Shown here: positions 15,826 to 51,531 of the stretch, piece by piece | Layout of the letters: the number at the start of each line of letters is the position of its first letter | Position numbering within the stretch: position 1 is the stretch's first letter | NCBI GenBank assembly: GCA_000002435.2 | Contig: CM018790.1 | Direction: 5' to 3' (one strand) | DNA from: Giardia intestinalis | Lineage: Eukaryota | Length of the DNA: 64,000 nt | Translations under genes and position numbers: made by a program | Notes under the pieces: model-generated | The model's database searches: none | The model's input: only the letters and a program-made list of their open reading frames with translations | What the model was told of the DNA's origin: nothing

Positions 15826-17439
15826 ATGTTGCCAGAACAGTATAGTAGCAGTGACGCAATCTCTAATGCTATAGACCAACACCTCTCTTCATTCAAGTAT
15901 CTGTCTCTCTATACTCTCAAGGGAACGGACAAGTTCATGGCCGAGGAGATTGATGCCGAGATACAGGGTGAAGGTGAGCGTGCCACGCTGGATATGCTGT
16001 ACGCAGAGTACGCCTCTGCACAGCTTCTGGCACACTCCAACATTATCAGGTATCATGGTCTCTTTGTACACGCATATTACGTCTATAATGTCACTCAGTT
16101 CTGTGCCACCCCGCTGAGTGCCGTGAAATTTTACAATAAAGATTGCGGCTTGTCCGTCAGCGATGTACTTAAGTTCACAGCCCAGACGGCACTTGCCCTA
16201 GCCTACCTCCACAGTCCATATAAGGTCGGTCCGCAACACATAAGCACGTTTTGTCTTCCACGGGTGCATGGATGGATGTCCTTAGACTCCGTAGTTATTG
16301 ACGCCGCCTCCTCCAGATATGTGGTCATGGACCTGGTACCTACTTTGAGGAGACTTCGGGTAAAGTCGAAGAGAACCCCCATGTCGAGACGGTATTTTTC
16401 GCCCGAAAAGCTCTTGCGTGGGGACGACTCTCCTGGATTCCCTCAGGATGATGCCTGGAGTCTTGGCATCATTCTGTATGAGTGTATCACAAATCAGAAA
16501 TTTAACTGCCCCGATAAAGAACACTATGCTACAGAAGAGCAGTGGACTGAATTCATGGGGAAACATATTGACTTAATTCAAGACGTTTGGCTCCGAAATC
16601 TTGTTATGCAGCTTCTTGCCTTCAATCCAGCTGAGCGTTTGACAGTGGAGGAGCTTCTGATGGACCCACGGATTGCTCAGGCAGCAGCAGACAACGAGGC
16701 GAGGCTTGTGTCTCACATGGAGCTTTCTTTCCTAGGAGACAAGAGAATGCAGTGCCTATACCCAGAGATCGTTCAAGCAAACAAGGATCTGCACTCTAAC
16801 CTGGATCAGTTACTCTCGGAAATAAGTGGTGAAGAAAGGAGAAGCTTTGAGTTGAAGGAGCAATGCGAAGATCTAACGACTCAGCAAGAAAGCCTCCTCT
16901 CTGAGATAGCTATGCAACAAGCAGCCGTCAGCTCTATGAAAGATCTTGCAAATGATATCAATCCAAACTATGACCAGCTTAAGGCCGAACTTGAGGAACT
17001 CGCTAGGTATCTAGACATCGATATTAATCAGGAAAACACACTTTCCATGCTAAATGGTGCAGATCAGGCAATCCAAGACATGATGAATGCGATACAACAA
17101 CTACAAGAGCTAGTCTCGATATATAATGACCACAAGGAGCGCATTAGAGATCCAAATCAATTGAATAGAGAAGCTGATGCAATGTTAGTAGATCTAAAGA
17201 GCACTATCTATTCTACTGCGCAGTTCATTGCTCGCTTAAGTAAGGATGCTTGCGTTGATCTTCTGGACAGTGACATTCCCACGTGCTCTGTATGCCTAGG
17301 AAGTTTATCTAATATAGTATTTTATCGGTGCAACCATATTGCGTGCTGTAATGTCTGTTTGGAGCACATATTAAATAGTACGCGCACGTGTCCCATCTGC
17401 AGGACAGAGATAACTCAGTACAAGGAGGTAACTTGGTAA
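15826..17439 (+). CDS. kinase-like (pseudokinase) protein with coiled coil and C-terminal C3HC4 RING finger
   Basis: The N-terminal kinase-like fold lacks the glycine loop, HRD and DFG motifs. The central region is coiled coil. The C-terminus reads CSVCLGSLSNIVFYRCNHIACCNVCLEHILNSTRTCPICR, a RING consensus. Start context is aagaaATGttg. Confidence 0.7.
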   Translation: MLPEQYSSSDAISNAIDQHLSSFKYLSLYTLKGTDKFMAEEIDAEIQGEGERATLDMLYAEYASAQLLAHSNIIRYHGLFVHAYYVYNVTQFCATPLSAVKFYNKDCGLSVSDVLKFTAQTALALAYLHSPYKVGPQHISTFCLPRVHGWMSLDSVVIDAASSRYVVMDLVPTLRRLRVKSKRTPMSRRYFSPEKLLRGDDSPGFPQDDAWSLGIILYECITNQKFNCPDKEHYATEEQWTEFMGKHIDLIQDVWLRNLVMQLLAFNPAERLTVEELLMDPRIAQAAADNEARLVSHMELSFLGDKRMQCLYPEIVQANKDLHSNLDQLLSEISGEERRSFELKEQCEDLTTQQESLLSEIAMQQAAVSSMKDLANDINPNYDQLKAELEELARYLDIDINQENTLSMLNGADQAIQDMMNAIQQLQELVSIYNDHKERIRDPNQLNREADAMLVDLKSTIYSTAQFIARLSKDACVDLLDSDIPTCSVCLGSLSNIVFYRCNHIACCNVCLEHILNSTRTCPICRTEITQYKEVTW

Positions 17440-17524: not shown

Positions 17525-18910
17525 ATGTCTCAGCAGTTCATTCTCGTGGTGGGGGACATCAACATCCCGACAAAAGCCTTCCAAATCCCCATTCAGTTCC
17601 GGGAAATCTTCCACCCCAGGCGCATATCCCATGTGATTCTGACCGGGAACGTTACATCAGCAGGCACTGTCTCGTTTCTCAAGACTATCAAGTCTGATCT
17701 ACACGCAGTTCGAGGACCTTACGATGAGACAAGCTACCCCGACGTGGACACGCGCAACTACTGCGGCTACAACATCTCTGTAATGAATGGAAGCCAATGC
17801 ATGCCGATGGGGGACTCAGCACAGCTTTCTAAGTTTGCAAAGGTATACGACAGCGAGATCATTTGTTCCGGATGTGGCTGGCGCCCGTTCGTTGGAATGG
17901 TTGATAACGTTCTGGTGGTTAAGCCCGGGAGCCTGACTGGCAGTATTAAGGAACATGAGCCCGGTTACGCCGATGACTCATCTTACTGCTTTAGCCAGAG
18001 CTCACAACCAGGAGAGGATGCAAGCTCTCTTACGGACTCTGATGGAATGAAGACATATGTGCCTAACCCATCGAAGGTTTATCCATATGTTCGCTATACC
18101 AGCGAACCGTCGTTTGTCCTACTGGGAGTATCGAAGGGTTCACCACTTGTTAATGTCTTCACATACATCATCCGTGATACCCAGCTGGTTGTCTCATCAT
18201 CGAAGTTTATGGTTCCTAAACTTCATGAACTACCAGAGCCTCAAGTAGAGATGTTTATGCATCACAGATCCTCACAAGAGCAACAGTCACAAGAACCTGT
18301 CGCTTTTGGAGGCCTAGGTAATCCGCCGCAAACAGCACTGCCTCCGTCATCACAGCAGTTTAACCCCTATTCACCTTCTACAATTAATGCACAGATAGGA
18401 GCGCCGTCTCAGGCGTGGCAGGTACCACCGTCCTTCCAAGGTGGAGAGGGTCTGCCGGGCCAGCAGTTTTCTAGTCAGTCATCATGGGCCTCTCAGCAGG
18501 TATCTGCCCCTGCCCCTACCCTAGTGCAGCCTACCCCCATTGCTGCCCCAGTGCAGCCTACCCCCATTGCTGCCCCAGTGCAGCCTACCCCCATTGCTGC
18601 CCCAGTGCAGCCTACCCCCATTGCTGCCCCAGTGCAGCCTGTTGAAGACTCTGCTTCTTCTGTTACTACGTCAGCTGTGTCAGCAGCTCCACCGGCGCCC
18701 ACTAAAGCGAATCCTTATTTGCAAGCTAAGGCGTCTCCTGGCACAAATCCTTACCTTGCTAGCTCTGCTACTAAGCCTGCTAACCCCTATCTTAAGGCAA
18801 CGAATCCTGGCACCTCTCCGACCAGTCCCCCAACAACAAATCCATACCTCAAAATGGCGGGAGGAACGAGTGAAACGTCCCCATATCTTAAGAAGTTTGA
18901 AGATTCTTAG
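17525..18910 (+). CDS. VPS29: VPS29-like (retromer metallophosphoesterase-fold) protein with long low-complexity C-terminal extension
   Basis: The N-terminal ~190 aa align by eye to VPS29 (MSQQFILVVGDINIPTKAF, HVILTGNV, VRGPYDE, IICSGCGWRPF, VVKPGSLTG). After ~aa 240 comes a Q/P/S-rich extension with 4x QPTPIAAPV and several NPYL motifs. Confidence 0.75.
   Translation: MSQQFILVVGDINIPTKAFQIPIQFREIFHPRRISHVILTGNVTSAGTVSFLKTIKSDLHAVRGPYDETSYPDVDTRNYCGYNISVMNGSQCMPMGDSAQLSKFAKVYDSEIICSGCGWRPFVGMVDNVLVVKPGSLTGSIKEHEPGYADDSSYCFSQSSQPGEDASSLTDSDGMKTYVPNPSKVYPYVRYTSEPSFVLLGVSKGSPLVNVFTYIIRDTQLVVSSSKFMVPKLHELPEPQVEMFMHHRSSQEQQSQEPVAFGGLGNPPQTALPPSSQQFNPYSPSTINAQIGAPSQAWQVPPSFQGGEGLPGQQFSSQSSWASQQVSAPAPTLVQPTPIAAPVQPTPIAAPVQPTPIAAPVQPTPIAAPVQPVEDSASSVTTSAVSAAPPAPTKANPYLQAKASPGTNPYLASSATKPANPYLKATNPGTSPTSPPTTNPYLKMAGGTSETSPYLKKFEDS
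18524..18640 (+). repeat. perfect tandem repeat, 27-nt unit x ~4.3 (gtgcagcctacccccattgctgcccca), encoding QPTPIAAPV repeats
   Basis: Four full identical units at 18524-18550, 18551-18577, 18578-18604 and 18605-18631, then a partial unit 18632-18640. The repeat lies in frame inside the VPS29-like CDS. Confidence 0.9.
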
Positions 18911-18960
18911 TAATGTTGGCTCATTCAGTGCGACTGTAAATAATGCTGCTTCTAGACTGT

Positions 18961-21150
18961 TTACTGCACACTAGACCTGTCATTTAGGGCTTTCAGCAAC
19001 GGATCTTGCAAAGATGTTGCAGATAGAAGCAGTGTTTCCCGGTCGTGAGAAAGCTTTGTAAGACAGAGGCGCTTTATAAAGCTGTCACAGAAATCGTTTC
19101 CTAGTGCAGAAAATTCAGAAACTAGCTGCTCCACGCTTTCTACCTGGTGAGAGGCTGCGACAGTCCTCAACGTCGCAATTAAAATATCCACACTGTTCTT
19201 TTGGCTTCTGGACAGAGTGGCGCTAATTGTGCTATATGTTTTCGAGGCTTCTAGCTTGCTGCTGGTAATAAAGGAAGGTGGAGGAGGCGTCTTGTAACCT
19301 GGCGGATCGCTTGAGTTGAAGCTCAATTTTCGAAGTTCGCTACGTGAGGAGGGTCCGGGACTGGTTAAGCTGTACTTATCTGTGCGATGCCTGGCAGAGA
19401 GGCTTACACTATCTGAAAAAGCGGGAGCGGGAGGAATGGCGGGGATCTGTGGGACCTGAGGAACCTTAAGTGCATCGGTGATTTGCGCACCAGGTATGTG
19501 AATTTGGGTTTTCTGACTGGGATCCTGTGAGAGGACTGAGTGTAGTTTAACGGCGGTAGTCGGTCTATTAACGGTATCCTTCAATGGGGTAGCATTAGAT
19601 AGATCTTTGTGAACTAGCTCTGACGGATGTATAGTCGGCGATGGCTCATTTGACTCATCAGTAGAAACTCGGGCACATCCACCCCCTTGCAAAGAGTCAG
19701 TGAAGCCATCAGCAACGCTTTGCAGGGGTAGGATAACATCTTGGCCGTTTATATCTTCTCCTGTAGCGCTTAGCTGGCCGACATTCTGCTCTAGGTGAGG
19801 TGGTGGTGGTGATGTTAATTTGGAATGTTGGGGAGAGTTCTCGGATGTGTCACTAGAAAAGCTCCAATCTTCTTGTTTCTTGGTCGGCTGAATCTTCTCG
19901 TGGTCTAATTGATTTAAATAGGGATCTTCTGGAGAGAATGTGACATTTATCTCGGAGCCCGCATTGGCTCTTGCCCGGGAAGCAGCAGCTTGTTTAACTG
20001 GAACAAATTCTTCCTCGGCAGAACCCTGTTCTTCGGGAAGCCAAATATAGCCCAGATCATCTTGTTTTGTTTGTATGGCAAAGGGGTCGTGTAAGCGATC
20101 CTGCTCTCGTCTATTGAAGTCACGAAAGTATTTCTCCATAATGGGGGCTAGAACATCGCGTGCAGAGACCTTCTGGATGGTTTTGAACCACTTGTGGGTC
20201 AAGAGCTTACTTGCAGGCCATCGATTAGTCTTGTCTCTGTCCAAACAGCAGGCAGCAAAGTCTCTGCACGTCTTGGAGATCTCAACCTTGTCATCAAACA
20301 GTGATGTGCTGGACGAATTTCTCGCTATTTCAATCATGGCCTTCGTGGGAGAGAGTTTGTGGTGAGGTGGGTGGCCAAAAATAAGCTCATAGAGGCAGAT
20401 TCCAACTGCCCAGATATCAGAAAAAGAATCGCACTCATTTTTGGTAATAGCCTCTGGGGAAAGCCAATAAGGTGTGCCAACAAACGAGCATCTTTTGGAC
20501 ATGGTCGAAGAAATTGTCGTCGAGACACCAAAATCGCAGAGCTTGATTCCCAATGATAAGGCAGCTGCAGAGTCAGAATTTGGCCGAGGAGAAAAAGAGC
20601 GAGCAATAGTCGAGATGTAACTTCCATGAGAGCTCCTCGGCCTGGAGGTTTCAGAAAAGAGACCTGGAGAAACAGGTTTGCCCAGTATTAAGTCAATTAG
20701 CCGCTTTGCCAAGCCATCAGGCTGCTGTGCCACGGTTGAAGACGTGCTGTCATCGGTCACAAGGATATTGGCACACTTTAAATCTCTGTGTATGACCTTG
20801 GATTCATGAAGATACGCAACCCCCTTAACCAAGTGGTACATAATGAAGCACGCAGTAGCTTCGTTGAGGGGTCCGACTATGCTCAGTATATCTGCCACAG
20901 AGCAGAGGCCAGCCTCCATGGCTATGTTCAAGGTGCTCTCTGTGCACCACGACCTATAGTAACGGATAGTGTAGTTAGACATCAACCTAGTCATGAGGGT
21001 AACCTCTTTCTGGACCACATCCAGCTCTGAAAGTGACTGCTCTAAATCTACTGTCTTGATAGCCACGTAGGTCATTGTCTTTTCATCTAGCGCCAAGTAC
21101 ACTGAACCGAAGCCACCGGAACCCAGTATCTTTAGTAGCTTGTATCCCAT
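18961..21150 (-). CDS. STE20-like serine/threonine protein kinase (active)
   Basis: GSGGFGSVYLA glycine loop, VAIK lysine, HRDLKCANIL catalytic loop, DFG, and the STE20-type GTPYWLSPE activation segment. The ORF-track start at 21384 adds 78 implausible hydrophobic residues and overlaps the divergent RanBP1 gene. The first ATG, in the context ttgttaacaacccgATGgga, is at 21150. Confidence 0.8.
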   Translation of the reverse strand: MGYKLLKILGSGGFGSVYLALDEKTMTYVAIKTVDLEQSLSELDVVQKEVTLMTRLMSNYTIRYYRSWCTESTLNIAMEAGLCSVADILSIVGPLNEATACFIMYHLVKGVAYLHESKVIHRDLKCANILVTDDSTSSTVAQQPDGLAKRLIDLILGKPVSPGLFSETSRPRSSHGSYISTIARSFSPRPNSDSAAALSLGIKLCDFGVSTTISSTMSKRCSFVGTPYWLSPEAITKNECDSFSDIWAVGICLYELIFGHPPHHKLSPTKAMIEIARNSSSTSLFDDKVEISKTCRDFAACCLDRDKTNRWPASKLLTHKWFKTIQKVSARDVLAPIMEKYFRDFNRREQDRLHDPFAIQTKQDDLGYIWLPEEQGSAEEEFVPVKQAAASRARANAGSEINVTFSPEDPYLNQLDHEKIQPTKKQEDWSFSSDTSENSPQHSKLTSPPPPHLEQNVGQLSATGEDINGQDVILPLQSVADGFTDSLQGGGCARVSTDESNEPSPTIHPSELVHKDLSNATPLKDTVNRPTTAVKLHSVLSQDPSQKTQIHIPGAQITDALKVPQVPQIPAIPPAPAFSDSVSLSARHRTDKYSLTSPGPSSRSELRKLSFNSSDPPGYKTPPPPSFITSSKLEASKTYSTISATLSRSQKNSVDILIATLRTVAASHQVESVEQLVSEFSALGNDFCDSFIKRLCLTKLSHDRETLLLSATSLQDPLLKALNDRSSVQ

Positions 21151-21210
21151 CGGGTTGTTAACAAATTTTGCCAGCAGAGTGAAATTGGATAACGAAAAAA
21201 CTCGCAATTG

Positions 21211-21711
21211 ATGACAAGCGAACCTACCCAGGAAGTAACCAAATGTGGTCCAAATGAAAAGGACTACTTCCGCATCAGAGCAAAGGTATACCGTTTTGCA
21301 GATGACGAATGGAAGGAGCGTGGTCAAGGTGAGGTCTTGATCGCGGAGGATCCCAAAGAGAAGAAATACAGGCTTCTTCTCCATCGAGATCAGACCCTAA
21401 AGTGCGCAGTGAACCTCCCCTTGATTGAGGGCGTGGCAGTGAAGCCGCTCGGAAACTCTGACAAAGCTGTTACTGTTGCCGGTCTCGACTTTTCAGACAA
21501 CGAGAAGAAACAAACCGTTTTTGCAGTCAAGTTTACCGAGGCATGGATGTGCAAGAACTTTCAAACTGCTGTAGAGCATGCCCTGGCGGGGAAAGAGTTG
21601 ACCGAGGCCGATCTGATCAAAAAGCCTGACTCCGAAGAACCCAAGAATGATAAACCTGCTGAGGCGAAAGCTTCTGAAAAAGATGTTGAAGAAGTGGGTG
21701 ACAAAAAGTGA
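21211..21711 (+). CDS. RANBP1: Ran-binding protein 1 (RanBD domain) homolog
   Basis: FRIRAKVYRF...EWKERGQGEVLI...YRLLLHRDQTLKCAVN...FAVKFTEAWMCKNFQTAVEHA matches the RanBD signature. The ATG is at 21211 after aacgaaaaaactcgcaattg. The stop is embedded in AGTGAAC (21707-21713). Confidence 0.8.
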   Translation: MTSEPTQEVTKCGPNEKDYFRIRAKVYRFADDEWKERGQGEVLIAEDPKEKKYRLLLHRDQTLKCAVNLPLIEGVAVKPLGNSDKAVTVAGLDFSDNEKKQTVFAVKFTEAWMCKNFQTAVEHALAGKELTEADLIKKPDSEEPKNDKPAEAKASEKDVEEVGDKK

Positions 21712-46635: not shown

Positions 46636-48291
46636 AGGCGCGGGCCACGCGGAGAGACTCGGGGAACCGGACGAGAGGCGCCCTGCGTCGGACTGGGGCA
46701 GCGGGTGAGCGGGGGCCAGGGCCGCGAGGGATTGCTTCCGGGCCTCTGCCTCACGCCGACCCTCGCCGCCTGCTCAGATATCTGCACGGAGCCGCGTGGA
46801 GCAGCTGGAAACGCATTTACTACCTAAGTCACATCTAAGTCTACGCTTTGCCTCTACAGAGGAACCACCAGCAGAGGAAGCCGACGAGGCCCCCGACGAC
46901 GATGACAGCGGCCACAGCGATGCCAGCGATGGCGCCAGTGGAGAGGCCGCTCTTGTTGGCGCTAGAAGGCACGCACTTTTTATCATCACCTAGAACAAAT
47001 CCATCGTTACACTCTGTGCACGTGCCGTCGGGACATGATTTGCAGTTAGGAAGATCGCAGCCAGCAGGCGCGTCCGCGCAGGTGTTCGGAGCCGATCCGT
47101 CGCCGTACGGGCAGTTATCGTAGCACCCGCCCTTGTAGAGCTTCTGCGTCTGGGTACACGCCGTGCAGGTTCCATCTGTGCTTCCCGACCCAGGCGTGCA
47201 CATGTTTGCCTGGGCCTGCTGCGTGCAGGCGCCGTTGACCGGGACATACCCGCTCTTGCATTTGGAGCAGTACGTTTTGCCATTGATCGTCACGTCGCAC
47301 TTGCCGGCGGCGCAGTTTGTCGCGCCGGGGTCTGCGGCGTCGCACGGCGTTGGGGCAGAGACCGCTGCTTTTGCTTCTTCTACTACTTGGACCGCCTGGG
47401 CTAATTGCAGAATAAAGCTCACAAAAAGAAGCTTACTCAACATTGATTCTGTGGCTATGTATTGGTATTTGTAAAAAGACTTGCTGTGTGAACTATCAAC
47501 TAGATTGTCAGTTGATAAAGCTGATGCAAACGCGGACTCATAGGAGAAAGAATCCTCCTAGCTTACAAAGTGCTAAGCAATGCGTACTAGATAATAACAG
47601 CTGAATAAGAATAGAACATTCAAGTGCCTCGGTATGAAAACTGAAAGTGAACTGAACTTTGATTACACGGAGAGCCACTTGCTGTTATGCTGGAGCTTTA
47701 CCAGTGCAGAATCATGTAATCGAACGCACATTTAGGTAGTAGACGCATCCACATGCTGCGTCGCACAAAAAGGCCTTATAGGCTGCCCAGTGGACCCACG
47801 CTCGTTGTCTTAGTGGTCGGAACAAAGTTTGGGGATGTTACGGCTGGGTTATCGCTTGCGGGCATGGTTTAGTAATCCCACGAGTAAATTTTCGCTTAAT
47901 TCCTAGCCAGACCGGACGAGAGTTGGTCATGGATAGCATAACGAGAGAGTCCTCTCCAGTGATATATTCAAAGTCTGGGCATTCCTCGGCCGCTCCATGA
48001 GGATATGCTCTGTCTGGATATCCATGCCGATCTGCCTTGAATTCAAGCCTTCTCGCAGGCTCTCTGCTCTACCCGTGGCGCCTCTCCTTGGTCTTCCTTC
48101 GTGGCTGGTGAGGCTCCGGTCGCTGTCCTTTTTTAGATGCCCCGTCTGTCAGGAGCTGCCATCGGGCTCTCCACTGGCTGGGCCCTCGGTGTCCGGTCAG
48201 CTGTGGCTCGGGCAGTGCTCCTACAGTCGTAGTCACCTGGGTCCCGGTGGGTCCGGCTGGTGGGGAGGCAGGGGTATGGGGCGGTGGGGGC
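46636..48291. repeat. IR1 left arm (~1.65 kb) carrying VSP copy 1 plus ~850 bp non-coding DNA
   Basis: The reverse complement matches 49697..51352 wherever I compared (VSP ORF, 5' flank, GC-rich inner end). Mirror relation: left = 97988 - right. Boundaries set by loss of identity (cgcgggccac / caccgcccc). Confidence 0.85.
46841..47443 (-). CDS. variant-specific surface protein (VSP), 200 aa, copy 1
   Basis: Signal peptide MLSKLLFVSFILQLAQA, CXXC motifs (CAAGKC, CSKCKS, CTACTQ, CKSCPDGTCTEC), a GGCY motif, a TM helix, and the invariant C-terminal CRGKA. AGTAAAT polyA signal ~20 nt after the stop. Confidence 0.85.
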   Translation of the reverse strand: MLSKLLFVSFILQLAQAVQVVEEAKAAVSAPTPCDAADPGATNCAAGKCDVTINGKTYCSKCKSGYVPVNGACTQQAQANMCTPGSGSTDGTCTACTQTQKLYKGGCYDNCPYGDGSAPNTCADAPAGCDLPNCKSCPDGTCTECNDGFVLGDDKKCVPSSANKSGLSTGAIAGIAVAAVIVVGGLVGFLCWWFLCRGKA

Positions 48292-48492: not shown

Positions 48493-49350
48493 ATGCGCGC
48501 TGCTCCGCCTGGGGCTGCACCAACAGCTCCTAGGGTGTCTGAGTTTACCTTCGAGCAGCTTCGTGGACTACTGGGTAACGTGCTGGGCAGAGGTGCCATG
48601 GGTACAGTCTACGCTCTCAGGGGCTATCAGGGCCTCGCCGTGAAGGAGATCCGGCTCGACAGCCTGAACGAGAAGGCTATCGACGCCCTCATGCTTGAAC
48701 TAGATGTTCTCCCTGGCCTTCACCACCCAGGGGTTCTCAGATACCACCAAGTGATCAAAGGCAACGACCTCGTCTACATCGTCATGGATCGCCACAGCAG
48801 GACTCTTAATGACCTCGTTATCGAGTGCAAGCAGGGGGACAGACCTATCTCTGTTACTATGATCCTCTCAAGTGTGAGGCAGCTCGTCGCCGCCCTCGCC
48901 TACCTCCACAGCGTCAGCGGAGTGGGTGCCGACGGCCACCCCTACCAGGGCCTCGTCCACCGCGACCTCAAGCCTGCCAACGTCCTCATCAGTAAAAAGG
49001 GAAAGCGCTTCATCATCGCCGACTTCGGCCTCTGCAAGGACGCCCTGAGATGCGGGAGCACCTATGCAGGGACGCCACTATACATGGCCCCCGAGACCCT
49101 TATCCGCAACAAGACCAGTCCCGCCTCCGACGTGTGGAGCCTCGGGGTCATCCTCTACGAGCTTACTACTCTGAGGAGACCGGACTTCTTGGGGGGCAAG
49201 GAGCCAGCAGAGGTCTTCATCGATGGGTGGAGGCCGGACCTGAGCGGTGTCACTGATGGCTTCATAAAGAGTGTTCTGGAGCGGATATTCGTGCTGGAGC
49301 CAGAGAGGAGGCCGACGGCCAGGGAGCTGTGCGAGATGCTCAGACAGTAA
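48493..49350 (+). CDS. NEK-family serine/threonine kinase, catalytically competent (285 aa), in IR1 spacer
   Basis: GRGAMGTVYA loop, AVKEI lysine, HRDLKPANVL, DFG, PLYMAPE. Start context aaaataataaatccacgATGcgc. AGTAAAC (49346-49352) overlaps the TAA stop. Confidence 0.8.
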   Translation: MRAAPPGAAPTAPRVSEFTFEQLRGLLGNVLGRGAMGTVYALRGYQGLAVKEIRLDSLNEKAIDALMLELDVLPGLHHPGVLRYHQVIKGNDLVYIVMDRHSRTLNDLVIECKQGDRPISVTMILSSVRQLVAALAYLHSVSGVGADGHPYQGLVHRDLKPANVLISKKGKRFIIADFGLCKDALRCGSTYAGTPLYMAPETLIRNKTSPASDVWSLGVILYELTTLRRPDFLGGKEPAEVFIDGWRPDLSGVTDGFIKSVLERIFVLEPERRPTARELCEMLRQ

Positions 49351-49696: not shown

Positions 49697-51352
49697 GCCC
49701 TCACCGCCCCATACCCCTGCCTCCCCACCAGCCGGACCCACCGGGACCCAGGTGACTACGACTGTAGGAGCACTGCCCGAGCCACAGCTGACCGGACACC
49801 GAGGGCCCAGCCAGTGGAGAGCCCGATGGCAGCTCCTGACAGACGGGGCATCTAAAAAAGGACAGCGACCGGAGCCTCACCAGCCACGAAGGAAGACCAA
49901 GGAGAGGCGCCACGGGTAGAGCAGAGAGCCTGCGAGAAGGCTTGAATTCAAGGCAGATCGGCATGGATATCCAGACAGAGCATATCCTCATGGAGCGGCC
50001 GAGGAATGCCCAGACTTTGAATATATCACTGGAGAGGACTCTCTCGTTATGCTATCCATGACCAACTCTCGTCCGGTCTGGCTAGGAATTAAGCGAAAAT
50101 TTACTCGTGGGATTACTAAACCATGCCCGCAAGCGATAACCCAGCCGTAACATCCCCAAACTTTGTTCCGACCACTAAGACAACGAGCGTGGGTCCACTG
50201 GGCAGCCTATAAGGCCTTTTTGTGCGACGCAGCATGTGGATGCGTCTACTACCTAAATGTGCGTTCGATTACATGATTCTGCACTGGTAAAGCTCCAGCA
50301 TAACAGCAAGTGGCTCTCCGTGTAATCAAAGTTCAGTTCACTTTCAGTTTTCATACCGAGGCACTTGAATGTTCTATTCTTATTCAGCTGTTATTATCTA
50401 GTACGCATTGCTTAGCACTTTGTAAGCTAGGAGGATTCTTTCTCCTATGAGTCCGCGTTTGCATCAGCTTTATCAACTGACAATCTAGTTGATAGTTCAC
50501 ACAGCAAGTCTTTTTACAAATACCAATACATAGCCACAGAATCAATGTTGAGTAAGCTTCTTTTTGTGAGCTTTATTCTGCAATTAGCCCAGGCGGTCCA
50601 AGTAGTAGAAGAAGCAAAAGCAGCGGTCTCTGCCCCAACGCCGTGCGACGCCGCAGACCCCGGCGCGACAAACTGCGCCGCCGGCAAGTGCGACGTGACG
50701 ATCAATGGCAAAACGTACTGCTCCAAATGCAAGAGCGGGTATGTCCCGGTCAACGGCGCCTGCACGCAGCAGGCCCAGGCAAACATGTGCACGCCTGGGT
50801 CGGGAAGCACAGATGGAACCTGCACGGCGTGTACCCAGACGCAGAAGCTCTACAAGGGCGGGTGCTACGATAACTGCCCGTACGGCGACGGATCGGCTCC
50901 GAACACCTGCGCGGACGCGCCTGCTGGCTGCGATCTTCCTAACTGCAAATCATGTCCCGACGGCACGTGCACAGAGTGTAACGATGGATTTGTTCTAGGT
51001 GATGATAAAAAGTGCGTGCCTTCTAGCGCCAACAAGAGCGGCCTCTCCACTGGCGCCATCGCTGGCATCGCTGTGGCCGCTGTCATCGTCGTCGGGGGCC
51101 TCGTCGGCTTCCTCTGCTGGTGGTTCCTCTGTAGAGGCAAAGCGTAGACTTAGATGTGACTTAGGTAGTAAATGCGTTTCCAGCTGCTCCACGCGGCTCC
51201 GTGCAGATATCTGAGCAGGCGGCGAGGGTCGGCGTGAGGCAGAGGCCCGGAAGCAATCCCTCGCGGCCCTGGCCCCCGCTCACCCGCTGCCCCAGTCCGA
51301 CGCAGGGCGCCTCTCGTCCGGTTCCCCGAGTCTCTCCGCGTGGCCCGCGCTG
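49697..51352. repeat. IR1 right arm (~1.65 kb) carrying VSP copy 2
   Basis: Mirror image of 46636..48291. Confidence 0.85.
50545..51147 (+). CDS. variant-specific surface protein (VSP), 200 aa, copy 2 (identical to copy 1)
   Basis: Identical translation to 46841..47443. AGTAAAT at 51167-51173. Confidence 0.85.
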   Translation: MLSKLLFVSFILQLAQAVQVVEEAKAAVSAPTPCDAADPGATNCAAGKCDVTINGKTYCSKCKSGYVPVNGACTQQAQANMCTPGSGSTDGTCTACTQTQKLYKGGCYDNCPYGDGSAPNTCADAPAGCDLPNCKSCPDGTCTECNDGFVLGDDKKCVPSSANKSGLSTGAIAGIAVAAVIVVGGLVGFLCWWFLCRGKA

Positions 51353-51458: not shown

Positions 51459-51531
51459 GGGCGGTTAGCTCAGTTGGTAGAGCGCGTGCTTCGCAAGCAC
51501 GAGGCCGGGGGTTCGACTCCCCCATCGTCCA
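51459..51531 (+). tRNA. tRNA-Ala (anticodon CGC)
   Basis: Cloverleaf folded by hand. Acceptor GGGCGGT/ATCGTCC with a G3:U70 pair (the Ala identity element). D-arm GCTC-AGTTGGTA-GAGC. Anticodon stem CGTGC/GCACG with loop TTCGCAA. T-arm GGGGG-TTCGACT-CCCCC. Discriminator A. CCA is not encoded. Confidence 0.9.

What the first reader, a model, noticed from the sequence alone, without database searches (positions are those of the whole stretch)
18200..18910. VPS29-like retromer subunit fused to a repetitive Pro/Gln-rich tail with NPYL motifs and a perfect 27-nt tandem array
The first ~230 aa match the VPS29 metallophosphoesterase-like fold. The protein then continues for ~230 aa of low-complexity sequence containing 4 identical QPTPIAAPV units and four to five NPYL/SPYL motifs (ANPYLQAK, TNPYLASS, ANPYLKAT, TNPYLKMA, SPYLKKF). 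NPxY-type motifs are cargo sorting signals read by FERM/PTB domains (SNX17/SNX27, retriever/retromer-associated). The motifs are seen directly, but their functioning as sorting signals here is speculation. Perfect nucleotide identity of the 27-nt units implies recent expansion and likely length polymorphism between isolates.
Basis: partly seen in the sequence, partly recalled or inferred. Interest (0 to 1): 0.55.

Follow-up and report, generated by a model that had tools for sequence, protein, structure and literature searches.

The report
Giardia VPS29 with conserved disordered tail
This is the already annotated Giardia retromer subunit VPS29, which carries a real, selectively maintained, disordered C-terminal tail with five invariant "PYL" motifs and a length-variable 27-base repeat; the tail looks like a docking arm for an unknown partner, not a set of NPxY sorting signals.

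Summary
Window 17525-18910 (+) is one 461-aa ORF, identical to the annotated VPS29 of Giardia intestinalis WB (GL50803_103855).

- **Core:** residues 1-235 are a VPS29 fold. The metal-binding histidines are lost, and a ~50-aa loop is inserted.
- **Tail:** residues 236-461 are predicted disordered.
- **Repeat:** the tail holds four perfect in-frame 27-nt units (QPTPIAAPV).
- **Motifs:** it also holds four NPYL motifs plus a terminal SPYLKKF.

The tail is real coding sequence. It is an uninterrupted ORF in six independent assemblies. dN/dS is 0.06-0.27 at dS above 1. All 23 motif residues are invariant although 17 of their codons vary synonymously. Published C-terminal fluorescent fusions are expressed.

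A profile of the tail finds nothing else among 1.84 billion representative proteins, and Giardia muris VPS29 lacks it.

The NPxY/SNX17-SNX27 interpretation fails. The motif is N-P-Y-L, the protein contains no NPxY, and Giardia is reported to lack retromer sorting nexins and ERM-domain proteins.

My best reading is a lineage-specific multivalent short-motif arm on a sorting-nexin-less retromer. The partner is unidentified; published work shows that VPS29 co-purifies with Giardia actin.

The gene is known, and I found no description of the tail. Interest is modest.

The parts
17525..18910 (+). Complete CDS of Giardia intestinalis WB VPS29 (GL50803_103855; XP_001708741.2 / KAE8302349.1), 461 aa plus stop
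   Evidence: ORF list. Exact-sequence look-up finds the identical protein under those NCBI accessions.
17525..17956 (+). VPS29 core, N-terminal part (aa 1-144)
   Evidence: Pfam Metallophos_2 aa 6-149. phmmer against PDB VPS29, aa 2-144, E 1.6e-22. AF2 pLDDT is mostly 60-87. dN/dS is about 0.006. The metal ligands are replaced: H10N, D62P, H86N, H115C, H117W.
17957..18106 (+). Giardia-specific loop insertion in the core (aa ~145-194), absent from human VPS29 and shared with G. muris
   Evidence: The alignment with human VPS29 shows a 45-residue gap in the human row. AF2 pLDDT is below 50 for aa 139-192. dN/dS is 0.02-0.06.
18107..18229 (+). VPS29 core, C-terminal beta-strands (aa 195-235), including L199, the equivalent of human L152 in the Pro-Leu ligand pocket
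   Evidence: Alignment. AF2 strands E196-202, E208-217 and E220-229 with pLDDT 69-87. Foldseek target TM-scores to VPS29 structures are 0.69-0.79.
18230..18907 (+). C-terminal tail (aa 236-461). Composition: Pro 19%, Ala 13%, Ser 12%, Gln 10%. Predicted disordered and restricted to the G. duodenalis complex.
   Evidence: AF2 pLDDT is about 30 throughout. No Pfam domain. dN/dS is 0.16-0.35 for aa 236-389 (0.16-0.27 between lineages with dS above 1) and 0.06-0.24 for aa 390-461 (0.06-0.13 at dS above 1). A tail profile finds only Giardia VPS29 among 1.84 billion representatives. Absent from G. muris.
18296..18322 (+). Invariant island PVAFGGLGN (aa 258-266) in the proximal tail
   Evidence: Invariant in all six tail sequences. 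Function untested.
18519..18640 (+). 27-nt coding minisatellite: four perfect in-frame units (18527-18634) encoding QPTPIAAPV, plus partial copies at both ends
   Evidence: TRF. Unit-by-unit read-out and comparison with five other assemblies. Copy-number differences between protein models.
18710..18721 (+). NPYL motif 1 (aa 396-399, context TKANPYLQAK)
   Evidence: Invariant with synonymous codon variation.
18746..18757 (+). NPYL motif 2 (aa 408-411, context PGTNPYLASS)
18782..18793 (+). NPYL motif 3 (aa 420-423, context KPANPYLKAT)
18839..18850 (+). NPYL motif 4 (aa 439-442, context PTTNPYLKMAGG)
18878..18898 (+). Terminal SPYLKKF motif (aa 452-458), 3 residues from the C-terminus

Best explanation
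What it is (shown): the gene is the annotated Giardia intestinalis (assemblage A, WB) retromer subunit VPS29. It has three parts.
- A catalytically dead VPS29 scaffold (aa 1-235).
- A Giardia-specific disordered loop inserted in that scaffold.
- A 226-aa disordered C-terminal tail, found only in the G. duodenalis species complex.

The tail has its own layout. A proximal part has conserved aromatic/Gln islands. The middle is a Pro-rich spacer whose length drifts through slippage of a 27-nt coding repeat. The distal part is a cluster of four invariant NPYL motifs, 12-19 residues apart, followed by an invariant SPYLKKF at the very C-terminus.

How it most likely works (inferred): the tail is a flexible, multivalent short-linear-motif arm on VPS29. 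In other eukaryotes VPS29 sits at the membrane-distal end of retromer and recruits accessory proteins. Here the arm would recruit a lineage-specific partner in cis. That would replace what disordered tails of other proteins do in trans elsewhere (FAM21, the Vps5 N-terminus, TBC1D5), and Giardia is reported to lack those proteins.

The partner is unknown. The only experimental lead is the cortical, actin-associated machinery, because VPS29 co-precipitates with Giardia actin.

Status of each step: identity, fold, continuity of the ORF, purifying selection on the motifs, lineage restriction and repeat variability are shown. Disorder is predicted. Partner binding is inferred.
For: - Identity: the sequence is an exact match to XP_001708741.2.
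- Fold: phmmer against PDB gives only VPS29. An AF2 model built on a 52-sequence alignment matches 34 VPS29 structures first, with target TM-scores of 0.69-0.79.
- Dead enzyme, pocket kept: the metal ligands are replaced, while L199 (= human L152) and neighbouring hydrophobic residues remain.
- The tail is coding and constrained: it is an uninterrupted ORF in six assemblies from at least four lineages. Between lineages with dS of 1.0-1.8 in the tail, dN/dS is 0.06-0.13 in the motif region and 0.16-0.27 in the proximal tail, against about 0.006 in the core.
- Motif-level selection: 23 of 23 motif residues are invariant against 21 of 49 neighbouring residues (Fisher p = 8e-7). Seventeen of the 23 motif codons vary synonymously and none varies non-synonymously. 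This excludes a DNA-level constraint.
- Aromatic residues are preferentially kept: 12 of 14 are invariant against 86 of 212 other residues (p = 0.0013).
- Disorder: AF2 pLDDT is about 30 for aa 236-461.
- Translated in vivo: the published localisation and actin co-immunoprecipitation used C-terminal mNeonGreen fusions (PMC8552679).
- Context: Giardia is reported to lack retromer sorting nexins and FAM21/WASH.
- Precedents for disordered motif-bearing regions acting on or with VPS29: the Vps5 N-terminus (PMC12000511) and the VPS29C extension (PMC12260524).
Against: - No partner is identified, and NPYL matches no motif class I could test (not NPxY, not NPF, not Pro-Leu).
- G. muris VPS29 lacks the motif cluster, so the arm is not needed for retromer function in the genus.
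- Conserved aromatic residues in a disordered region also fit non-specific self-association.
- AF2 gave no confident structure or docking for any motif, but it was a single-chain run with only six tail sequences.
- The actin link is a co-precipitation of the whole protein. It has not been mapped to the tail.
Confidence: 0.5

Rival explanations
1. Self-association. The tail is a 'sticker and spacer' disordered region. Its regularly spaced, conserved aromatic residues (including the Tyr of each NPYL) would drive weak multivalent self-association or condensation of retromer on peripheral-vacuole or ER membranes, with no dedicated reader domain.
For: Twelve of 14 aromatic residues in the tail are invariant against 86 of 212 others. 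The composition is rich in Pro, Gln, Ser and Ala. The spacer length is free to vary. The localisation is punctate and cortical.
Against: Conservation extends beyond the aromatic residue to Asn, Pro, Leu and the flanking Lys (NPYLQAK, NPYLKM, SPYLKKF are invariant). That is typical of a specifically read motif, not a generic sticker.
Confidence: 0.15
2. Self-pocket binding. The P-Y-L motifs bind the conserved hydrophobic (Pro-Leu ligand) pocket of VPS29 itself. In cis this would be autoinhibition, as in the human VPS29C isoform. In trans it would cross-link retromers into a lattice in the absence of SNX-BAR proteins.
For: The pocket residues are retained: L199 = L152, and I28, F29, R33, I34. 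The pocket binds Pro-Leu turns in disordered regions of many partners, and an appended extension autoinhibits it in VPS29C.
Against: Known ligands have adjacent Pro-Leu; here a Tyr lies between them. AF2 of the full-length protein gives pLDDT of about 30 at all motifs with no sign of docking, whereas docking was predicted for VPS29C.
Confidence: 0.12
3. Neutral low complexity. The tail is low-complexity sequence produced by repeat slippage and merely tolerated, as in many G. duodenalis proteins compared with the compact G. muris genome. It would have no specific function.
For: G. muris lacks it. An active minisatellite is present. The neighbouring kinase gene is also far longer in G. duodenalis than in G. 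muris. No homologues exist elsewhere.
Against: dN/dS is well below 1 over the whole tail between lineages at saturating dS. All motif residues are invariant despite abundant synonymous change.
Confidence: 0.07
4. The motifs are NPxY-type sorting signals read by FERM or PTB domains (SNX17/SNX27, retriever or retromer adaptors).
For: Only a superficial resemblance (Asn-Pro-Tyr), plus the retromer context.
Against: There is no N-P-x-Y in the protein. The protein is a soluble coat subunit, not membrane cargo. Giardia is reported to lack retromer sorting nexins and ERM-domain proteins.
Confidence: 0.03
5. Artefact. The extension would come from a frameshift, a misassembly or a separate downstream ORF fused by error.
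For: The older WB gene model differs in length (452 against 461 aa). RNA-seq split reads once suggested an intron in this gene.
Against: The same continuous ORF occurs in six independent assemblies, with codon-level purifying selection. The intron candidate was among 13 rejected by PCR. C-terminal fusions are expressed. The 9-aa length difference is exactly one repeat unit.
Confidence: 0.01

Closest known systems
Canonical VPS29 (for example human VPS29, 182 aa; PDB 1W24, 2R17)
   Same: It has the same metallophosphoesterase-like fold. All top sequence and structure matches are VPS29. The VPS35-facing QxxP segment and the L152-equivalent pocket leucine are retained.
   Different: It is 461 aa rather than about 182. 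It has a ~50-aa loop insertion and a 226-aa disordered C-terminal tail. All metal-coordinating His and Asp residues are replaced.
Giardia muris VPS29 (282 aa)
   Same: It is the orthologue: about 55-60% identical in the core, with the same loop insertion and the same downstream synteny (kinase, RanBP1).
   Different: It has only a ~45-aa Gln/Pro/Tyr-rich tail (with PPY and QPY) and ends 17 nt before the next gene. It has no NPYL cluster and no 27-nt array.
Human VPS29C isoform (28-aa N-terminal autoinhibitory extension; PMC12260524)
   Same: It is a VPS29 with an appended flexible extension that changes partner binding.
   Different: The human extension is N-terminal, short, helical and made by alternative splicing. 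It is predicted to dock on the pocket. The Giardia tail is C-terminal, eight times longer and repetitive, and no docking is predicted.
Disordered retromer-binding tails with repeated short motifs: the FAM21 tail (LFa repeats) and the Vps5 N-terminal region (Pro-Leu and [K/R]-hydrophobic motifs; PMC11331091, PMC12000511)
   Same: The logic is the same: a long unstructured region carries short conserved motifs that link retromer to other machinery (PDB 8TTD and 8FUD appear among the fold matches).
   Different: Those tails belong to partner proteins and bind retromer. Here the tail is part of the retromer subunit, and its motif (NPYL) differs from LFa and Pro-Leu. Giardia is reported to lack FAM21/WASH and the sorting nexins.
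NPF-repeat tails of endocytic accessory proteins (epsin, synaptojanin and others) read by EH domains
   Same: Several copies of an Asn-Pro-aromatic tripeptide are clustered in a disordered C-terminal region of a trafficking protein (the family description is from general knowledge and from abstracts listed).
   Different: The aromatic residue is Tyr, not Phe, and an invariant Leu follows it. I found no evidence for EH-domain proteins in Giardia, and I did not test for them.

Membership tests
VPS29 (retromer/retriever subunit) | Metallophosphoesterase-like alpha/beta sandwich fold | tested here: met
   Pfam PF12850, E 7.8e-9. The AF2 model has Foldseek target TM-scores of 0.69-0.79 to 34 VPS29 chains.
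VPS29 (retromer/retriever subunit) | Closer to VPS29 than to any other phosphoesterase | tested here: met
   All 18 PDB sequence hits are VPS29. The first non-VPS29 structure appears at rank 35. The profile search returns named VPS29 proteins.
VPS29 (retromer/retriever subunit) | Conserved hydrophobic patch that binds VPS35 (human V90/I91 region) | tested here: inconclusive
   The segment Q-C-M-P-M aligns with human Q-V-I-P-W. It is hydrophobic but substituted.
VPS29 (retromer/retriever subunit) | Physical assembly with VPS35 and VPS26 | not testable with these tools
   VPS35 and VPS29 were recovered together in the actin screen, and Miras et al. 2013 is cited for complex assembly. That paper was not available.
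VPS29 (retromer/retriever subunit) | Solvent-exposed pocket around Leu152 that binds Pro-Leu ligands | tested here: met
   L199 aligns with L152. I28, F29, R33 and I34 align with L25, L26, K30 and I31. Only residue conservation was tested, not binding.
NPxY sorting signal (PTB/FERM ligand, SNX17/SNX27/SNX31) | Asn-Pro-x-Tyr/Phe register | tested here: not met
   A regular-expression search for NP.Y in the 461-aa protein gives zero matches. All the motifs are N-P-Y-L.
NPxY sorting signal (PTB/FERM ligand, SNX17/SNX27/SNX31) | Located in the cytosolic tail of a transmembrane cargo | tested here: not met
   The protein is a VPS29 coat subunit. Its tail is Pro/Ala/Ser/Gln-rich and has no hydrophobic span.
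NPxY sorting signal (PTB/FERM ligand, SNX17/SNX27/SNX31) | A FERM or PTB reader present in the organism | not tested
   Literature only: Giardia is reported to lack the retromer sorting nexins and ERM-domain proteins.
EH-domain ligand (NPF motif) | Asn-Pro-Phe tripeptide | tested here: not met
   The motifs are NPY, never NPF.
EH-domain ligand (NPF motif) | Several copies in a disordered region of a trafficking protein | tested here: met
   There are four NPYL and one SPYL within 63 residues, where pLDDT is about 30.
EH-domain ligand (NPF motif) | EH-domain proteins present in Giardia | not tested
   The literature searches gave no Giardia EH-domain protein. The proteome could not be scanned with these tools.
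VPS29-pocket Pro-Leu ligand | Adjacent Pro-Leu forming a turn | tested here: not met
   A Tyr separates Pro and Leu in all five motifs.
VPS29-pocket Pro-Leu ligand | Predicted or measured docking on the pocket | tested here: inconclusive
   The single-chain AF2 run shows no rise in confidence at any motif. No multimer or peptide run was possible.
Coding minisatellite | Head-to-tail in-frame units with copy number differing between genomes | tested here: met
   TRF reports 4.5 copies at 98% matches. Assemblies carry 1 to 5 units. Caveat: short-read (Logan) assemblies may collapse the array.

The most novel reading that the evidence does not exclude
NPYL would be a new, Giardia-specific short linear motif class. 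Built into VPS29 itself, the tail would supply in cis the link between retromer and the actin-associated cortical or peripheral-vacuole machinery. Other eukaryotes make that link in trans through the FAM21/WASH tail or the disordered regions of sorting nexins. This would explain how a retromer without sorting nexins and without WASH is positioned and coupled to a highly divergent actin.
Probability: 0.2. Interest if true: 0.6.

Novelty: new variant of a known kind. Interest (0 to 1): 0.35.

Why it matters
Giardia keeps the VPS26-VPS29-VPS35 trimer. It is reported to lack the sorting nexins, WASH/FAM21 and a Golgi, so how its retromer is recruited and what it does remain open (PMC8552679).

A selectively maintained motif-bearing arm on VPS29 gives a concrete handle for testing. 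Deleting or mutating five short motifs, or using the tail as bait, could identify the missing partner. It could also test whether the reported actin association runs through the tail.

There are two practical points:
- The 27-nt array is a small length-polymorphic marker, and it is a source of gene-model and split-read artefacts.
- C-terminal tags used so far sit three residues from the invariant SPYLKKF motif and could mask it.

Tried and rejected
- **First AF2 run:** the 7-sequence alignment failed (mean pLDDT 31). The run was repeated with 52 sequences.
- **Core-only homologue search:** the word-index search with the core alone returned only G. muris. A mixed Giardia/human profile was needed to recover the family. 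No diplomonad outgroup (Spironucleus, Hexamita, Trepomonas) appeared in the listed hits, so the direction of tail gain or loss is unresolved.
- **AlphaFold database fold search:** the afdb50 library was not installed.
- **Miras et al. 2013:** the paper (PMC3834080) is not held.
- **Literature on the tail:** searches for 'gVps29', the locus tag, and Giardia with EH domain/NPF/Eps15 found no description of the tail or of a candidate reader.
- **Exact look-up of encoding contigs:** the look-up for the window's own protein found no record, although the protein itself is in the collection.
- **WH2-like actin-binding reading of the terminal 'LKKF':** considered and set aside. The upstream amphipathic helix that defines WH2 is not predicted in the better model, and the actin-screen authors state that none of their hits carry known actin-binding motifs.
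- **Tyr-x-x-hydrophobic adaptor signals:** only one of the five motifs (YLKM) fits, judged by eye on the motif listing.
- **Constraint from an overlapping gene:** rejected. The overlapping ORFs at 18493-18702 (-) and 18540-18974 (+) are by-products of the repeat. The motif codons also vary freely at synonymous sites.
Full report
**Observation.** The window contains one uninterrupted ORF at 17525..18910 on the + strand, 461 aa. The finding's coordinates (18200-18910) cover the last ~10 residues of the folded domain and the whole tail.

- Pfam places a Metallophos_2 domain at aa 6-149 (E 7.8e-9).
- A sequence search of the PDB returns only VPS29 chains (18 of 18; best E 1.6e-22 over aa 2-144).
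- Tandem Repeats Finder reports a 27-nt array at 18519-18640 with 4.5 copies and 98% matches. It is the only array scoring 80 or more in the 64 kb.
- Read in frame, there are four identical units CAGCCTACCCCCATTGCTGCCCCAGTG (QPTPIAAPV) at 18527-18634.
NPYL starts at aa 396, 408, 420 and 439, and SPYLKKF starts at aa 452.
- The tail's composition predicts 0.0017 NPYL. None of 200,000 shuffles of the tail gave more than one. The six-frame translation of the whole window holds only one further NPYL.

**Identity.** The protein is identical, residue for residue, to XP_001708741.2 / KAE8302349.1, 'Vacuolar protein sorting 29' of Giardia intestinalis ATCC 50803 (WB, assemblage A), on a 1.54-Mb contig. 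This is locus GL50803_103855. The gene is therefore annotated and has been studied.

- In an F-actin interactor screen, VPS29 and VPS35 were both recovered.
- VPS29-mNeonGreen gave cortical puncta.
- Complex formation with Giardia actin was confirmed by co-immunoprecipitation (PMC8552679).
- All fusions in that study except two other genes were C-terminal. The tail is therefore translated through to its end in vivo.
- The same paper states that the retromer sorting nexins, FAM21/WASH and ERM-domain proteins are missing from Giardia, and that the role of its retromer trimer is unknown.
- None of the papers I could search describes the tail, the NPYL motifs or the repeat. The main Giardia retromer paper (Miras et al. 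2013) was not available.

**The core.** With a 52-sequence alignment, AlphaFold2 gives pLDDT mostly 60-87 for aa 1-138 and 193-235. Foldseek puts 34 VPS29 structures first, with target TM-scores of 0.69-0.79. The first non-VPS29 phosphoesterase is at rank 35.

Alignment with human VPS29 shows a 45-residue insertion between the PGSxTG strand and the PSFVL strand. AF2 gives it low confidence (aa 139-192). G. muris shares the insertion, and it is well conserved within the G. duodenalis complex (dN/dS 0.02-0.06).

The metal-coordinating residues of the phosphoesterase fold are all replaced: H10 to N13, D62 to P65, H86 to N88, H115 to C117 and H117 to W119. The leucine of the Pro-Leu ligand pocket (human L152) is kept as L199, with hydrophobic neighbours. 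The core is therefore a non-catalytic VPS29 scaffold whose accessory-protein pocket appears retained.

**The tail is real and constrained.** Homologues with the tail were found in assemblage E (P15, 461 aa) and in four other G. duodenalis-complex assemblies (429-446 aa). Some of these came from human gut metagenomes. Gene order is conserved: a kinase-RING gene upstream, then a kinase and RanBP1 downstream.

I made a codon alignment and computed Nei-Gojobori estimates.

| Region | dN/dS |
|---|---|
| Core | about 0.006 |
| Proximal tail (aa 236-389), lineages with dS above 1 | 0.16-0.27 |
| Distal motif region (aa 390-461), lineages with dS above 1 | 0.06-0.13 |
| Proximal tail, WB against P15 (tail dS 0.34-0.47) | 0.35 |
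| Distal motif region, WB against P15 | 0.24 |

- Tail dS between the diverged lineages ranged from 1.0 to 1.8.
- All 23 residues of the five motifs are invariant, against 21 of 49 neighbouring residues (Fisher p = 8e-7).
- Seventeen of the 23 motif codons show synonymous differences and none shows a non-synonymous one. The constraint therefore acts on the peptide, not on the DNA.
- Aromatic residues along the whole tail are preferentially conserved: 12 of 14 against 86 of 212 (p = 0.0013).
- Other invariant islands exist, notably PVAFGGLGN at aa 258-266.
- AF2 gives pLDDT of about 30 for the whole tail with essentially no secondary structure (a single three-residue helical turn) and no local rise at any motif. 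It is predicted to be disordered and not docked on the core.

**Lineage restriction.** A profile built from six tails and run with HMMER over 1.84 billion representative proteins found only Giardia VPS29 itself.

G. muris VPS29 is 282 aa. After the core it has only about 45 residues, rich in Gln, Pro and Tyr (with PPY and QPY). Its stop codon lies 17 nt from the next gene in a syntenic context, so the motif cluster is truly absent.

I could not obtain diplomonad outgroups. Gain in the G. duodenalis lineage is more likely than loss in G. muris, but this is not proven.

**The repeat.**

| Source | Copies of the 9-aa unit |
|---|---|
| WB, older RefSeq model (452 aa) | 3 |
| WB, current model (461 aa) | 4 perfect |
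| P15 (assemblage E) | 4 perfect plus 1 near-perfect |
| Two related lineages, probably assemblage B | 1 or 2 |
| A2-like isolates | 1, preceded by an (Ala-Pro)n run in place of the other copies |

Units are identical within a genome but differ between WB (ACC, Thr) and P15 (GCC, Ala). This indicates recent slippage or concerted evolution.

One caveat applies. Several of the short versions come from Logan short-read assemblies. As far as I know these use 31-mers and would collapse a perfect 27-nt array, so their copy numbers are not reliable. The comparisons between the two WB models and with P15 do not depend on them.

The gene was also one of 14 RNA-seq 'intron candidates' in a 2013 study. 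Thirteen of these, including this one, were rejected by PCR. I infer that split reads over the repeat are the likely cause.

- The register is N-P-Y-L, and NP.Y does not occur.
- The protein is a soluble coat subunit, not cargo.
- The proposed readers are reported absent.

The motif is also not NPF (the EH-domain ligand). Nor is it an adjacent Pro-Leu, the ligand of the VPS29 pocket.

What the evidence does show is the signature of functional short linear motifs in a disordered region. The islands are short and invariant, the spacers vary in sequence and length, and the five copies lie 12-19 residues apart.

VPS29 is the retromer subunit through which accessory proteins are normally recruited, and those partners use disordered, motif-bearing regions of their own. 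The most economical explanation is that G. duodenalis has built such an arm into VPS29 itself. The arm would recruit a lineage-specific partner to a retromer that lacks sorting nexins and WASH.

The only experimental lead to the partner is the co-precipitation with Giardia actin. It has not been mapped to the tail. I give this explanation about 0.5.

**Rivals.**

| Rival | Probability | Main point |
|---|---|---|
| Sticker-and-spacer self-association | 0.15 | Supported by aromatic conservation. Weakened because Asn, Pro, Leu and Lys are conserved too. |
| Binding to VPS29's own pocket, in cis or in trans | 0.12 | The pocket is retained and VPS29C is a precedent. The motif is not Pro-Leu and AF2 shows no docking. 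|
| Tolerated low complexity | 0.07 | Contradicted by the selection data. |
| NPxY reading | 0.03 | Fails the motif register. |
| Artefact | 0.01 | Contradicted by six assemblies, selection and expressed fusions. |

**Novelty and score.** The gene and its VPS29 identity are known. The long tail is visible in public gene models. I found no published description of its conserved motif architecture, its restriction to the G. duodenalis complex or its repeat behaviour.

I class it as a new variant of a known kind: a VPS29 with an appended motif-bearing disordered arm. It would not astonish a specialist, but it gives a direct experimental handle on an open question, namely what Giardia's minimal retromer binds. 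Interest is 0.35.

The most novel reading not excluded is that NPYL is a new motif class linking retromer in cis to the actin-associated cortex. I give that a probability of about 0.2, and an interest of about 0.6 if true.

Noticed in passing
window 46638-48291 and 49697-51350: A perfect (100%) 1654-nt inverted repeat with 1405 nt between the arms. Each arm carries an identical 200-aa Cys-rich ORF ending in CRGKA, which looks like a variant-specific surface protein (46841..47443 on the - strand, 50545..51147 on the + strand). The spacer holds a 285-aa kinase ORF (48493..49350). GC content is raised here to 0.55-0.60.
   Followed up: partly
window 51459-51531 (+): A tRNA gene (Rfam RF00005, 69 bits) lies just outside the right arm of the inverted repeat. 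It is the only Rfam match in the window.
   Followed up: no
window 18961-21384 (-); L006 3866-5152: The convergent downstream kinase gene is about 730-810 aa in G. duodenalis-complex genomes but 428 aa in G. muris at the syntenic position. Its extra part is Ser/Pro-rich. Long low-complexity extensions may therefore be a general difference between the two species, not something special to VPS29.
   Followed up: no
window 17957-18106 (aa 145-194): A ~50-aa insertion in the VPS29 core, next to the strand that carries the pocket leucine. It is predicted disordered yet well conserved. A [FY]VPxPxKVYP segment is shared with G. muris.
   Followed up: partly
window 18296-18322 (aa 258-266): An invariant PVAFGGLGN island in the proximal tail. 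From memory, F-G-G-L resembles the acidic-FGx-hydrophobic motifs that bind gamma-adaptin ear/GAE domains. This was not tested, and it is absent from G. muris.
   Followed up: no
window 17525-18229 (core): All metal-coordinating residues of the phosphoesterase fold are replaced (N13, P65, N88, C117, W119). Any residual phosphatase activity is unlikely.
   Followed up: yes
window 18519-18640: GL50803_103855 was listed as an RNA-seq 'cis-intron candidate' and was rejected by PCR (PMC3610916). Split-read mapping across the 27-nt array, whose copy number differed from the reference of the time, is the probable cause; this is my inference.
   Followed up: partly
window 15826-17439 (+): The upstream neighbour encodes a 537-aa protein with a weak, split kinase-domain match and a C-terminal RING finger (zf-C3HC4_3, E 1.6e-11). 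This is an unusual pairing of kinase-like and E3-ligase-like domains, and it is conserved in position in the other assemblages.
   Followed up: no
window 18493-18702 (-) and 18540-18974 (+, other frame): Two mechanical ORFs (69 and 144 aa) overlap the tail. They consist of repeat-derived peptide repeats and are by-products of the array, not genes.
   Followed up: yes
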